Made by a program: the position numbers and the translations under genes
Notes under the pieces: model-generated
The model's database searches: none
Told to the model about the DNA's origin: nothing
Seen by the model: the letters and a program-made list of their open reading frames with translations, nothing else
IMG/VR virus record: IMGVR_UViG_3300021387_000688
Reading direction: 5' to 3' (one strand)
Source: a virus
Taxonomy: Duplodnaviria > Caudoviricetes
Length of the DNA stretch: 64,000 nt
Shown: positions 37,423-63,484 of the stretch, piece by piece
Position numbering within the stretch: position 1 is the stretch's first letter
How the letters are laid out: the number at the start of each line of letters is the position of its first letter

Positions 37423-37563
37423 ATGGGATACGAGTCTGCGGATGATGAATTTAATTTGTATGGAGTCATTGCTTCTGACGAAGTGGATGACGATAACTAT
37501 AATGAATCAGCCGAGGCTATGACCTTCGACCCTACTGAAGAATTATTAGACGAAGCAATTTAA
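37423..37563 (+). CDS. small highly acidic protein (46 aa, not in ORF track)
   Basis: MGYESADDEFNLYGVIASDEVDDDNYNESAEAMTFDPTEELLDEAI; AGGGGG RBS, CTATAAT upstream. Confidence 0.6.
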   Translation: MGYESADDEFNLYGVIASDEVDDDNYNESAEAMTFDPTEELLDEAI

Positions 37564-37604
37564 TTACAAATTGCGCTAATTATAAACATTAAGGAATTAA
37601 GGCT

Positions 37605-37706
37605 ATGAAAAACGTATTGAACAGGAGTTTAGTATTATTACAACAACAAATAGCCATAACTTTGCCTTTATATAGAAACAGATATTATTGGAGAGATAAG
37701 GGGTGA
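37605..37706 (+). CDS. leader peptide of tRNA array 1 (33 aa)
   Basis: MKNVLNRSLVLLQQQIAITLPLYRNRYYWRDKG; AAGGA upstream; stop overlaps antiterminator arm. Confidence 0.75.
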   Translation: MKNVLNRSLVLLQQQIAITLPLYRNRYYWRDKG

Positions 37707-37766
37707 GTTGATTCCGAGAGAGTTTAGAATTCAACACCCCTTTAGAGAAATCTAAAGGGGTTTTTT
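37698..37766 (+). promoter_or_regulatory. transcription attenuator (antiterminator/terminator) 1
   Basis: AAGGGGTG-AGTTGA pairs with TCAAC-ACCCCTT, competing with terminator ACCCCTTTAGA-GAAA-TCTAAAGGGGT + T tract. Confidence 0.8.
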
Positions 37767-38131: not shown

Positions 38132-38214
38132 GCGTTCATGACCGGAGATGGCATCGGGCCTGACTGTAAATCAGGTGTATTCGTACATGGGGAGTTCGAG
38201 TCTCTCAGGGCGCA
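38132..38214 (+). tRNA. tRNA-Tyr(GTA), second divergent copy
   Basis: CCTGA-CTGTAAA-TCAGG, TTCGAG T-loop. Confidence 0.8.
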
Positions 38215-41149: not shown

Positions 41150-41232
41150 TGGAGCGTATCTCAGCTGTCTTATAAACAGTCCGGTATAATTCGAGTAATT
41201 GGTGGATGAGGGTTCAACTCCCTCCGCTCCAA
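41150..41232 (+). tRNA. arm-rearranged tRNA-Ile(TAT)-like RNA
   Basis: perfect acceptor and T arm; anticodon arm GCTGT-CTTATAA-ACAGT directly after acceptor; TAATTGGT D-loop-like motif lies 3' of it. Confidence 0.6.
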
Positions 41233-41321: not shown

Positions 41322-41393
41322 TCCGCCGTAGCTCATCTGGTCAGAGCAGCTCTTTTTAAGGGTATGTAGTGGGTTCGACCCCCACCGGTGGTT
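41322..41393 (+). tRNA. tRNA-Lys(TTT), atypical short anticodon stem
   Basis: canonical D and T arms; GCTC-TTTTTAA-GGGT. Confidence 0.55.
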
Positions 41394-41396
41394 TAT

Positions 41397-41693
41397 ATGG
41401 AAAATGCACAGCCAAGAATTAAGTTTAAAAACTTTTGGCTTTGGTTTAAAGATCAAGTAATGCGTAAAAGGGCTTTCTATAATTTCTTTATAAGTAGAAA
41501 TGCTTGGGGAGCTTTTTCTATCAACTCCCACATCAGAGCAAGTACAGGGCAACCAAAAGTAACTTACAATACAGTAGAATCTGCGTTAAGGGCCGCAGAG
41601 AGTATGAGTAAAAAATATAACAAACATTTTTCAACTTATAAATGTTTGTTCTGCGATGGTTACCATGTAGGAAAAAATAGAGATAATAAATAG
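41397..41693 (+). CDS. small basic protein with YxCxxCxxxH motif
   Basis: YKCLFCDGYHVG. Confidence 0.65.
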   Translation: MENAQPRIKFKNFWLWFKDQVMRKRAFYNFFISRNAWGAFSINSHIRASTGQPKVTYNTVESALRAAESMSKKYNKHFSTYKCLFCDGYHVGKNRDNK

Positions 41694-41720
41694 GAGTAGT
41701 TAACAACTACTCCTTTTTTT
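41692..41720 (+). terminator. intrinsic terminator ending array 1 transcript
   Basis: AGGAGTAGTT-AAC-AACTACTCCT + T tract. Confidence 0.8.
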
Positions 41721-61585: not shown

Positions 61586-61662
61586 TGGGGCGTATACCCT
61601 CAGTCTGATAAACTGCAGAAAGGTTAATTGGTTACATGGTGGTTCAATTCCACTCGCCCCAA
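61586..61662 (+). tRNA. arm-rearranged tRNA-Ile(GAT)-like RNA
   Basis: same topology as 41150..41232; anticodon and T arms nearly identical to canonical Ile at 62055. Confidence 0.6.
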
Positions 61663-62054: not shown

Positions 62055-62128
62055 TGTCCAGTAGCGCAAACGGTTAGAGTGTCAGTCTGATAAACTGAAG
62101 GTTGGTGGTTCAATTCCACCCTGGACAA
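62055..62128 (+). tRNA. tRNA-Ile(GAT)
   Basis: TCAGT-CTGATAA-ACTGA. Confidence 0.9.
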
Positions 62129-62271
62129 CTGGGTGCAGCAACGTCTTGGATAGCACGTTACGAGAGCTAACCTAATTGTATAAAGGAGTTAGCTAGAGGA
62201 TATGGTAACATACCTCGTTCTAAGACTAGAGTGTTGGGCGGATAGGGCCGATGGAAGACACTCAATGTTAT

Positions 62272-63280: not shown

Positions 63281-63356
63281 AGCGGGCGAGTGAAACGGAA
63301 TTATCATGCTAGCCTCATAAGCTAGAGATACTGGTGTTCGACTCCCAGGTCCGCCA
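63281..63356 (+). tRNA. tRNA with CAT anticodon (Met or Ile2)
   Basis: CTAGC-CTCATAA-GCTAG; 1:72 mismatch. Confidence 0.75.
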
Positions 63357-63363
63357 TATACAT

Positions 63364-63437
63364 TTCGGGGTTGTACAGTTGGCTAGTATGTCGGGCTCAT
63401 AACCCGAAGGTCAGTGGTTCGAGTCCACTCCCCGAGT
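63364..63437 (+). tRNA. tRNA-Met(CAT), initiator-type anticodon stem
   Basis: TCGGG-CTCATAA-CCCGA (three G:C pairs). Confidence 0.85.
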
Positions 63438-63484
63438 CTATATCCGTTACTTTATTACTAAGTAAAGTAATAGGAGAGAGTTTT

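What the first reader, a model, noticed from the sequence alone, without database searches (positions are those of the whole stretch)
41150..41232. Arm-rearranged tRNA-Ile(UAU)-like RNA
Seen: perfect 7-bp acceptor and T arm, but a perfect anticodon arm with loop CT-TAT-AA starts only 7 nt after the acceptor strand, and the D-loop-like TAATTGGT comes after it. UAU-anticodon tRNAs are rare in bacteria, which normally use lysidine-CAU. Leader 1 uses only ATA for Ile, hinting this RNA is relevant to AUA decoding or acts as a decoy. Standard scanners would probably miss it.
Basis: partly seen in the sequence, partly recalled or inferred. Interest (0 to 1): 0.72.

Follow-up and report, generated by a model that had tools for sequence, protein, structure and literature searches.

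The report
Rewired phage isoleucine tRNA (UAU)
This is a real, conserved phage gene for an isoleucine tRNA that most likely reads the AUA codon. Its D-arm pieces sit behind the anticodon arm instead of in front of it, and it belongs to a large phage family of rewired Ile and Arg tRNAs that gene finders mostly miss and that I could not find described in print.

Summary
Window 41150-41232 (+) has a perfect 7-bp acceptor stem, a perfect T arm and an anticodon arm (loop CUUAUAA, anticodon UAU) that starts 7 nt after the acceptor strand. A D-loop-like UAAUUGG follows the anticodon arm.

It is not a wreck. About 170 distinct relatives in phage and metagenome contigs share the layout, and all stems covary. 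A 3-bp helix (nt 11-13 with the triplet just before UAAnnGG) encloses the anticodon arm. It is paired in 98-100% of sequences, in 23 different complementary versions. In this gene's subfamily a further 3-bp helix (41181-83 with 41203-05) also covaries and forms a pseudoknot.

Identity marks follow the anticodon. All 72 Ile-type members (UAU, GAU, CAU) have A73, and 71 of them have U after the GG. All 95 Arg-type members have A there, as the A20 rule predicts.

A second rewired copy (GAU) lies at 61586-61662.

Best reading: a working tRNA-Ile(UAU) that decodes AUA (27% of this phage's Ile codons) without lysidine. Charging and decoding are not shown. The decoy idea has no support.

This scan had already met the family on other DNA, mostly the Arg type. 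I found no published description.

The parts
41150..41156 (+). acceptor stem, 5' strand (pairs with 41225-41231)
   Evidence: 7 Watson-Crick pairs. In the family, 6-7 of the 7 pairs show changes on both sides. Pair 1-72 is U-A here and A-U in the closest relatives.
41157..41159 (+). U8 A9 U10 linker
   Evidence: U8 and A9 are invariant in alignments A3 and A4. UAU occurs in 61 of 63 sequences found with a pattern that did not specify these bases.
41160..41162 (+). helix 2, 5' strand (CUC), pairs with GAG at 41193-41195 and encloses the anticodon arm
   Evidence: 100% paired in 80 sequences and 98.6% in 72 Ile-type sequences, with 20, 36 and 16 double changes at the three pairs. 23 different complementary versions were seen. 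62 of 63 are paired when neither strand was in the search pattern.
41163..41163 (+). single A between helix 2 and the anticodon stem
   Evidence: Sequence. This base is A in the Arg type and in this subfamily, and C in the main Ile subfamily.
41164..41180 (+). anticodon arm: 5-bp stem and 7-nt loop CUUAUAA, anticodon UAU at 41171-41173, with U33, A37 and A38
   Evidence: All 5 stem pairs covary in the family, while the loop is conserved.
41181..41183 (+). extra helix, 5' strand (CCG), pairs with UGG at 41203-41205; pseudoknotted with helix 2
   Evidence: In 18 long-bulge UAU genes it is 98% paired. Three lineages carry CC/GG, GG/CC or GC/GC, and the third pair is A-U or G.U. The MFE fold predicts it.
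41184..41192 (+). 9-nt connector, specific to this subfamily
   Evidence: Its 5' three bases (GUA here) vary among the closest copies and its 3' six bases (UAAUUC) are invariant in them (alignment A5). The main Ile subfamily has 5 nt between the anticodon stem and helix 2. The Arg type has 8.
41193..41195 (+). helix 2, 3' strand (GAG)
   Evidence: See 41160-41162.
41196..41202 (+). D-loop-like segment UAAUUGG (equivalents of A14, R15, N16, N17, G18, G19)
   Evidence: When left free in the search pattern, 63 distinct genes show U-A-(A 60, G 2, U 1)-n-n-G-G. The positions that are universal in D loops are fixed and the positions that are variable there vary.
41203..41207 (+). UGGAU: U at the position-20 equivalent, extra-helix 3' strand (41203-05), and 2-nt link to the T stem
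   Evidence: The base after GG is U in 71 of 72 Ile-type genes and A in 95 of 95 Arg-type genes.
41208..41224 (+). T arm: 5-bp stem and loop UUCAACU
   Evidence: 4 of the 5 pairs covary. G53-C61 is invariant.
41225..41231 (+). acceptor stem, 3' strand
   Evidence: See 41150-41156.
41232..41232 (+). discriminator A73; no CCA is encoded (CUA follows)
   Evidence: A73 occurs in 72 of 72 Ile-type genes and in 63 of 63 in the independent set. Other tRNAs of the array also lack an encoded CCA.
61586..61662 (+). second rewired tRNA of the window, anticodon GAU (61607-09), helix 2 = ACC/GGU, main short-bulge Ile subfamily
   Evidence: (60 bits). Its acceptor differs from the UAU copy by one compensated pair. 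Its anticodon stem and T stem each differ by one base from those of the canonical tRNA-Ile(GAU) at 62055-62129, and both loops are identical.
37606..37707 (+). leader mini-ORF in front of tRNA array 1 (context only); both of its Ile codons are ATA
   Evidence: A promoter-like site lies at 37475 and a terminator-like hairpin at 37736-61. The next strong terminator-like hairpin on this strand is at 41692-714.

Best explanation
41150-41232 is a functional phage gene for an elongator tRNA-Ile with anticodon UAU. It is transcribed within tRNA array 1, cut out by RNase P and 3' processing, given CCA, charged by the host IleRS, and used to read AUA codons. It does not need lysidine (TilS).

Its core is rewired. 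The strand after U8-A9-U10 (nt 11-13) pairs with a triplet that lies behind the anticodon arm, so this D-stem-like helix 2 encloses and lengthens the anticodon arm. The D-loop-like bases (A14, R15, G18 and G19 equivalents) follow that triplet, where they can still reach U8 and the T loop. In this subfamily a second 3-bp helix closes the relocated D-loop region, which gives a pseudoknot.

Shown: the gene's layout, its conservation, covariation of all five helices, and identity marks that co-vary with the anticodon. Inferred: the L-shaped fold, processing, isoleucylation, and AUA-specific decoding.
For: (1) Helices are maintained by compensatory change. Acceptor, anticodon and T stems are 94-99% paired, with covariation scores of 0.77-0.81 against 0.19 for shuffles (0 of 500 shuffles as high).
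(2) Helix 2 is 98-100% paired with double changes at all three pairs and 23 versions. This also holds in a set found without specifying it.
(3) The extra helix 41181-83 / 41203-05 covaries across three lineages.
(4) The anticodon loop is conserved while its stem varies.
(5) Identity marks follow the anticodon, as the published rules predict (PMC9976931, Table 1). A73 is present in 72 of 72 Ile-type genes. U follows GG in 71 of 72 Ile-type genes, and A follows GG in 95 of 95 Arg-type genes.
(6) With the anticodon masked, all Ile-type genes fall in one clade, support 0.97.
(7) Conservation stops exactly at the acceptor ends. The flanks differ between contigs.
(8) The gene sits in tRNA arrays here and elsewhere.
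(9) Demand exists. ATA makes up 260 of 963 Ile codons in 42 long ORFs of the window, and both Ile codons of the array's leader are ATA.
(10) An unmodified UAU tRNA-Ile is known to work in bacteria (PMC3919564, PMC3575796).
Against: There is no expression, processing or charging data for any family member. E. coli IleRS charges a UAU tRNA poorly (PMC3575796), so charging depends on an unknown host. Some E. coli Ile determinants are absent here: A4-U69 replaces C4-G69, and U29-A41 replaces C29-G41. A U34 tRNA can misread AUG on some ribosomes (PMC3575796). The window may hold another AUA reader if the CAU tRNA at 63281-63356 is lysidinylated. The 3D fold is a model only.
Confidence: 0.75

Rival explanations
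1. A tRNA mimic that does not take part in translation. It could be a decoy or sponge for host anticodon nucleases or other tRNA-binding defence proteins, or a cargo of an RNA-protein particle like the permuted tRNA-like heads on 'handle' RNAs that earlier notes report in the same array.
For: The same array holds several tRNA-like RNAs that are probably not tRNAs (earlier notes). The rewired core could change recognition by host enzymes.
Against: There is no conserved flanking handle; conservation ends at the acceptor stem. A free acceptor end is kept, with A73 in 72 of 72 Ile-type genes and an encoded CCA in 20 of 72 Ile-type and 56 of 95 Arg-type genes. Identity bases outside the anticodon co-vary with the anticodon, which a nuclease decoy would not need. 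The family spans four to six anticodons of two amino acids (UAU, GAU, CAU, UCU, plus single ACG, CCU and ACU genes), all matching codons that phages use heavily.
Confidence: 0.12
2. A working tRNA with a different meaning. It might be charged by another synthetase, for example ArgRS because of shared ancestry with the Arg-type scaffold, or MetRS. Or it might carry a modified U34 that reads both AUA and AUG, so that it recodes rather than simply supplies Ile.
For: This subfamily shares the CUC/GAG helix 2 and A14 with the Arg type, and is 79% identical to some UCU genes. U34 tRNAs can read AUG on E. coli ribosomes (PMC3575796).
Against: The main Arg determinants are gone: C35 is A, and the A20 equivalent is U. 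A73, A35, U36, A37 and A38 fit Ile. The phage also keeps GAU copies of the same scaffold, and separate CAU tRNAs.
Confidence: 0.08
3. A decaying tRNA pseudogene, or a chance look-alike.
For: ARAGORN rejects it and its Rfam score is low (35.4 bits).
Against: About 170 distinct relatives keep every helix through compensatory changes. Closely related copies differ by paired substitutions.
Confidence: 0.02

Closest known systems
Canonical bacterial and phage tRNA-Ile, e.g. this window's own tRNA-Ile(GAU) at 62055-62129
   Same: 7-bp acceptor stem, A73, anticodon loop C-U-N-A-U-A-A, T arm with a UUCAAnU loop, a GG followed by U in the D-loop(-like) segment, and a place in a tRNA array.
   Different: There is no D hairpin between the acceptor and anticodon arms. 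The D-stem-like helix is made from nt 11-13 and a triplet 3' of the anticodon arm. The D-loop-like bases lie in the variable-region position. An extra 3-bp helix forms a pseudoknot. The wobble base is U, not G or lysidine.
tRNA-Ile(UAU) of Mycoplasma mobile (PMC3575796) and the G34-to-U34 suppressor tRNA-Ile1 of tilS-less Bacillus subtilis (PMC3919564)
   Same: A UAU anticodon used to read AUA without lysidine.
   Different: Those tRNAs are ordinary cloverleaves of cellular genomes. This one is phage-encoded and rewired. Whether its U34 is modified is unknown.
Rewired phage tRNA-Arg(UCU), e.g. Felixounavirus REP8 OQ174507.1 5918-5999, annotated 'tRNA-OTHER'
   Same: The same overall layout, the same U8-A9-U10, CUC/GAG helix 2, A14 and UAAnUGG; 78-79% identity.
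   Different: Anticodon UCU; A instead of U after GG; an 8-nt instead of a 12-nt connector; no covarying extra helix; discriminator A, G or U; often an encoded CCA.
D-armless mitochondrial tRNAs, e.g. [quoted passage not shown]
   Same: No D hairpin between the acceptor and anticodon arms. The anticodon arm follows a short linker.
   Different: The mitochondrial tRNAs lose the D-loop/T-loop contacts and are shortened. This family keeps G18 G19-like, A14-like and full T-loop bases and is longer than a normal tRNA. It acts (presumably) on bacterial ribosomes.
Class II tRNAs with a long variable arm (own knowledge) and allo-tRNAs (title and abstract of PMC5389517, seen)
   Same: A stem-loop between the anticodon and T arms; a non-standard cloverleaf found through metagenomes.
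   Different: Class II tRNAs keep a normal D arm (own knowledge), and allo-tRNAs differ from the standard in their acceptor/T-stem lengths (8/4 or 9/3). In neither does the extra arm carry the D-loop bases or pair with nt 11-13.

Membership tests
Canonical cloverleaf tRNA (Rfam RF00005) | Score at or above the family's gathering cut-off | tested here: met
   35.4 bits against a cut-off of 29. The alignment deletes the D arm.
Canonical cloverleaf tRNA (Rfam RF00005) | D-arm hairpin (stem 10-13/22-25 closing the D loop) between the acceptor and anticodon arms | tested here: not met
   Only 7 nt lie between the acceptor strand and the anticodon stem. ARAGORN makes no call.
Canonical cloverleaf tRNA (Rfam RF00005) | 7-bp acceptor stem, 5-bp anticodon stem with a 7-nt loop (U33, purine 37), 5-bp T stem with a T-loop consensus | tested here: met
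   with covariation.
Rewired-D-arm phage tRNA family (Arg and Ile types; defined in this scan, not in the literature I could search) | Helix between nt 11-13 and the triplet just 5' of UAAnnGG, enclosing the anticodon arm | tested here: met
   CUC at 41160-62 pairs with GAG at 41193-95. Family covariation is shown.
Rewired-D-arm phage tRNA family (Arg and Ile types; defined in this scan, not in the literature I could search) | U8-A9-U10 and a D-loop-like U-A-R-n-n-G-G placed 3' of the anticodon arm | tested here: met
   41157-59 and 41196-202. Conservation holds without pattern bias.
Rewired-D-arm phage tRNA family (Arg and Ile types; defined in this scan, not in the literature I could search) | High score to a family covariance model | tested here: met
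   79 bits to R1. This is circular because the gene is in the seed. Independent close copies score 71-81 bits, and canonical tRNAs score 31 or less.
Bacterial tRNA-Ile identity set (PMC9976931, Table 1) | A73, A35, U36, A37, A38 | tested here: met
   A73 is present in 72 of 72 Ile-type genes.
Bacterial tRNA-Ile identity set (PMC9976931, Table 1) | U20 (and U21) in the D loop | tested here: inconclusive
   U follows GG (41203), as in 71 of 72 Ile-type genes, against A in all Arg-type genes. That this base is equivalent to position 20 is an inference.
Bacterial tRNA-Ile identity set (PMC9976931, Table 1) | Wobble base G34 or lysidine; minor E. coli determinants C4-G69 and C29-G41 | tested here: not met
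   U34, A4-U69 and U29-A41. U34 is accepted by M. mobile IleRS (PMC3575796) and works in B. subtilis (PMC3919564), but E. coli IleRS charges it poorly.
Bacterial tRNA-Ile identity set (PMC9976931, Table 1) | Aminoacylation with isoleucine | not testable with these tools
   This needs a biochemical assay with the unknown host's IleRS.
D-armless mitochondrial-type tRNA | Loss of the D arm together with loss of the D-loop/T-loop elbow contacts; shortened molecule | tested here: not met
   The GG, A14-like and full T-loop bases are kept, and the molecule is 83 nt.
Handle-RNA cargo / Y-RNA-like tRNA mimic (earlier notes on this genome) | Conserved handle module flanking the tRNA-like head; sealed or permuted acceptor end | tested here: not met
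   The flanks are unrelated between contigs, and the acceptor end is open with A73.

The most novel reading that the evidence does not exclude
The rewiring is adaptive and not an accident of descent. Moving the D-arm pieces would hide phage Arg(AGA) and Ile(AUA/AUY) tRNAs from host enzymes that read the canonical D arm or core. Candidates are tRNA-cleaving defence nucleases and wobble-modifying enzymes that would make U34 read AUG. The tRNAs would remain visible to RNase P, the synthetases, EF-Tu and the ribosome. The UAU form would then give TilS-independent, AUA-specific decoding that the host cannot switch off.
Probability: 0.2. Interest if true: 0.85.

Novelty: new variant of a known kind. 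Interest (0 to 1): 0.68.

Why it matters
Outside mitochondria, nearly all tRNAs are thought to share one cloverleaf wiring. Here about 170 distinct phage genes for two amino acids keep the universal tertiary bases but connect them in a different order, and this subfamily adds a pseudoknot.

If these RNAs are charged and used, three things follow. The L-shape can be reached by a second topology on bacterial ribosomes. Phage tRNA inventories and codon-supply analyses are systematically incomplete, because ARAGORN called 1 rewired gene in 60 loci, and copies in cultured Streptomyces and crAss-like phages are unannotated. And the Ile/Arg pair offers a natural experiment on how class I synthetases read position 20 and the core.

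The UAU form also bears on how AUA can be read without lysidine.

Tried and rejected
1. An early idea was a 5-bp 'variable arm' (CCGGU with AUUGG). It was dropped because it does not hold in relatives. The register that covaries is CCG with UGG at 41203-05.
2. I looked for a pairing partner for the variable n in UAAnUGG and saw no covariation by eye in the parsed copies.
3. An equivalent of the extra helix in the Arg type and in the short-bulge Ile type: no consistent pairing by eye on the parsed rows (not counted).
4. Closest cultured relatives of the phage: the 473-aa neighbour gave no tblastn hit, and the RecA-like protein gave hits of 30% identity or less.
5. Cultured phages carrying the long-bulge UAU type: none.
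6. The window's own genome is not held, so I could not look for tilS, IleRS or a CCA-adding enzyme outside the window. Pfam gave no aaRS match for any of the 17 ORFs scanned, which include 12 of the window's 16 ORFs of 330 aa or more.
7. Literature: five searches for the architecture plus two reviews turned up no description. A sixth search found the AUA-decoding papers. The library lacks most subscription journals, so absence is not proof.
8. The FastTree tree rests on about 80 columns, so I use it only for the Ile/Arg split and not for the order of events.
9. Host: the only genome-collection hit is a 306-kb contig binned in a Candidatus Fimenecus (Clostridia) MAG. That contig may itself be a phage, so this is only a weak hint.

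Full report
**What is there.** Window 41150-41232 (+) reads as follows.
- A 7-bp acceptor stem: 41150-56 with 41225-31.
- A 7-nt linker.
- A 5-bp anticodon stem with loop CUUAUAA, anticodon UAU at 41171-73.
- A 27-nt stretch that contains UAAUUGG.
- A perfect T arm (41208-24).
- The discriminator A at 41232.

ARAGORN lists 22 tRNAs in the window but not this one. Rfam's tRNA model does find it, at 35.4 bits against a cut-off of 29. It does so by deleting the D arm and treating 24 nt as a variable-region insert.

**It has many relatives.** A blastn search of cultured phages hit only Felix O1-type phages. There, a 78-79% identical element with the same layout but anticodon UCU sits in the tRNA array. 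It is unannotated or called 'tRNA-OTHER'.

Pattern scans of IMG/VR and of metagenomes, filtered by a script for paired stems, gave 167 distinct genes with this layout. The anticodon counts are UCU 92, UAU 42, GAU 20, CAU 10, and single ACG, CCU and ACU. The script required paired acceptor, anticodon and T stems, which inflates the paired percentages for those three helices. It did not require helix 2 or the extra helix.

**Helices.** On 80 mixed sequences, the acceptor, anticodon and T stems are 98-99% paired and 19 of 20 pairs show changes on both sides. The covariation score is 0.78, against 0.19 for shuffles (0 of 500 as high) and 0.15 or less for slid registers. The 72 Ile-type genes give the same picture.

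The key extra element is a 3-bp helix between nt 11-13 and the triplet just before UAAnnGG. In the window this is CUC at 41160-62 with GAG at 41193-95.
- It was invariant in my first alignment only because the search pattern fixed it.
- A pattern that left it free showed full covariation: 100% paired in 80 sequences.
- In the Ile type it is 98.6% paired, with 20, 36 and 16 double changes at the three pairs.
- 23 different complementary versions were seen.
- 62 of 63 are paired in a set found without specifying either strand.

This helix encloses the anticodon arm, so the two can form one long arm with an asymmetric internal loop.

**An extra helix in this subfamily.** The UAU genes with a long connector (18 distinct, three lineages) share a further 3-bp pairing. 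It joins the first three bases after the anticodon stem to the three bases after GG. In the window this is CCG at 41181-83 with UGG at 41203-05.

The lineages carry CC/GG, GG/CC or GC/GC, and the third pair is A-U or G.U. Overall 98% of cells are paired. The single-sequence fold also predicts it. It crosses helix 2, so the core would be a pseudoknot. With only about two independent switches, this helix is supported but less firmly than helix 2.

**The D-loop-like segment.** Most of my patterns fixed UAAnUGG, so I ran one that left those seven bases open.

Among 63 distinct genes the segment reads U-A-(A 60, G 2, U 1)-n-n-G-G. Bases 8-10 are UAU in 61 of 63, and the discriminator is A in 63 of 63. 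The fixed positions are those that are universal in ordinary D loops (A14, R15, G18, G19), and the variable ones are 16 and 17.

My structural reading is an inference. The strand 11-13 runs down into the anticodon stem as 22-25 does in a normal tRNA. The returning triplet runs up and hands over to the D-loop bases as 10-13 does. In effect the order 'up strand, D loop, down strand, anticodon arm' has been cyclically permuted to 'down strand, anticodon arm, up strand, D loop'. U8-A14, G18-psi55 and G19-C56 could then all still form.

**Identity.** Published bacterial rules (PMC9976931, Table 1) give A20, C35, U/G36 and A/G73 for Arg. For Ile they give A73, the anticodon-loop bases, and U20 and U21.

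| Feature | Ile-type genes | Arg-type genes | Source |
|---|---|---|---|
| Base after GG | U in 71 of 72 | A in 95 of 95 | |
| Discriminator | A in 72 of 72 | G 46, A 34, U 14, C 1 | |

With the anticodon masked, a quick tree puts all 72 Ile-type genes in one clade (support 0.97). The window's type forms a six-member subclade. This is what one expects of tRNAs that are charged according to their anticodon. It also supports reading the GG as G18 G19.

**Context in the window.** The family model finds exactly two strong matches. One is this gene (79 bits). The other is a second rewired gene at 61586-61662 with anticodon GAU (60 bits). Ordinary tRNAs score 31 bits or less.

The GAU copy has almost the same acceptor stem as the UAU copy, differing by one compensated pair. 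Its anticodon and T stems each differ by one base from those of the canonical tRNA-Ile(GAU) at 62055-62129, with identical loops. Six other phage contigs also carry a rewired GAU plus a rewired UAU.

The UAU gene lies in array 1, between a promoter-like site with its leader/attenuator region (37475-37761) and a terminator-like hairpin at 41692-714. The leader's two Ile codons are both ATA. Given 27% ATA usage, that is only mildly unusual (p about 0.07). In 42 long ORFs, ATA makes up 260 of 963 Ile codons and AGA 57% of Arg codons.

The other possible AUA reader is the CAU tRNA at 63281-63356, whose identity I could not settle. The CAU tRNA at 63364-63438 looks like an initiator.

**Function.** An unmodified UAU tRNA-Ile reads AUA well and AUG weakly in B. 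subtilis (PMC3919564). It is also the natural solution in Mycoplasma mobile, although E. coli IleRS charges it poorly and E. coli ribosomes let it read AUG (PMC3575796).

The most likely role is therefore a lysidine-independent supply of AUA decoding for an AT-rich phage (33% G+C). Success depends on the host's IleRS and ribosome. The host is unknown. Earlier notes place the phage in sheep rumen. The only hit in the genome collection is a 306-kb contig binned with a Clostridia MAG.

Why the core is rewired is open. Evasion of host enzymes that read the D arm is attractive but untested.

**Rivals.**
- A decoy or particle cargo is unlikely. Conservation stops at the acceptor ends, the 3' end is open with A73, and identity bases track the anticodon.
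- A pseudogene is excluded by the covariation.
- A different amino-acid identity cannot be excluded without biochemistry.

**Novelty.** Five full-text searches for the architecture and two reviews gave no description of it. A sixth search supplied the AUA-decoding papers. The 2020 review of non-canonical tRNAs does not mention phages.

Earlier agents of this scan had already reported the Arg(UCU) form on other genomes, and one note mentions Ile members. I re-derived the family independently.

This report adds:
- the size and make-up of the Ile branch;
- the switch at the position-20 equivalent and at the discriminator between the Ile and Arg types;
- the unbiased test of the D-loop-like bases;
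- the extra pseudoknot helix of the long-connector UAU subfamily;
- unannotated copies in cultured Streptomyces phages (e.g. Mildred21, MF155946.1 73703-73779) and in the crAss-like Kehishuvirus 'tikkala' (OQ198717.1, between tRNA-Trp and tRNA-Met), which make bench tests possible.

Noticed in passing
window 61586-61662 (+): A second rewired tRNA, anticodon GAU, which ARAGORN misses and the default Rfam scan drops (29.9 bits when searched alone). It sits 390 nt upstream of a canonical tRNA-Ile(GAU) whose anticodon and T arms are nearly identical.
   Followed up: yes
window 38132-38214 and 63281-63356 (+): Two more weak Rfam tRNA hits that ARAGORN misses. One is a Tyr-like GUA tRNA whose acceptor stem, in the Rfam alignment, has one flagged non-standard pair and only three conserved pairs. 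The other is a CAU tRNA with an A1/C72 mismatch, which could be Met or a lysidine-type Ile.
   Followed up: partly
window 63364-63438 (+): A CAU tRNA with three G-C pairs at the bottom of the anticodon stem and a weak U1.G72 pair. It looks like an initiator.
   Followed up: no
L158:2689-2763 and L158:4029-4107; L350:2526-2602 (approx.): The rewired scaffold also carries the Arg anticodons ACG and CCU in jumbo-phage contigs of 220-247 kb. One contig has both ACG and UCU versions.
   Followed up: partly
L140, L295, L298, L302, L318, L331: The rewired UAU gene lies within about 10 nt of a canonical tRNA-Arg(UCU) in many unrelated contigs. This forms an AUA + AGA pair of rare-codon readers.
   Followed up: no
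Alignment A4, columns 15 and 31: The main short-connector Ile subfamily has no standard pair at the top of the anticodon stem (positions 27-43) in 53 of 72 genes, in nearly all of them a U.U mismatch.
   Followed up: no
L396:1493-1573 (OQ198717.1) and MF155946.1 73703-73779: Rewired Ile(GAU) genes are unannotated in a cultured crAss-like Bacteroides phage and in nearly all of the roughly 80 matching Streptomyces phage records (tRNA-Leu or a protein in two listed rows). The crAss-like copy has two U.U mismatches in its acceptor stem.
   Followed up: partly
L286:5527-5600 and L297:6932-7023: ARAGORN calls CUA-anticodon ('Pyl') tRNAs in two phage contigs that also hold rewired Ile tRNAs. These are possible amber suppressors.
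   Followed up: no
window 41388-41693 (+): A small ORF directly after tRNA-Lys that ends with a Cys-x2-Cys motif and is followed by a strong terminator-like hairpin (41692-41714). No Pfam match.
   Followed up: no
L442 (JAZNWZ010000130.1, 306 kb): A contig binned in a Candidatus Fimenecus MAG carries the same UAU gene and the same neighbouring tRNAs as IMG/VR locus L004. It is probably a giant phage contig inside a bacterial bin.
   Followed up: partly
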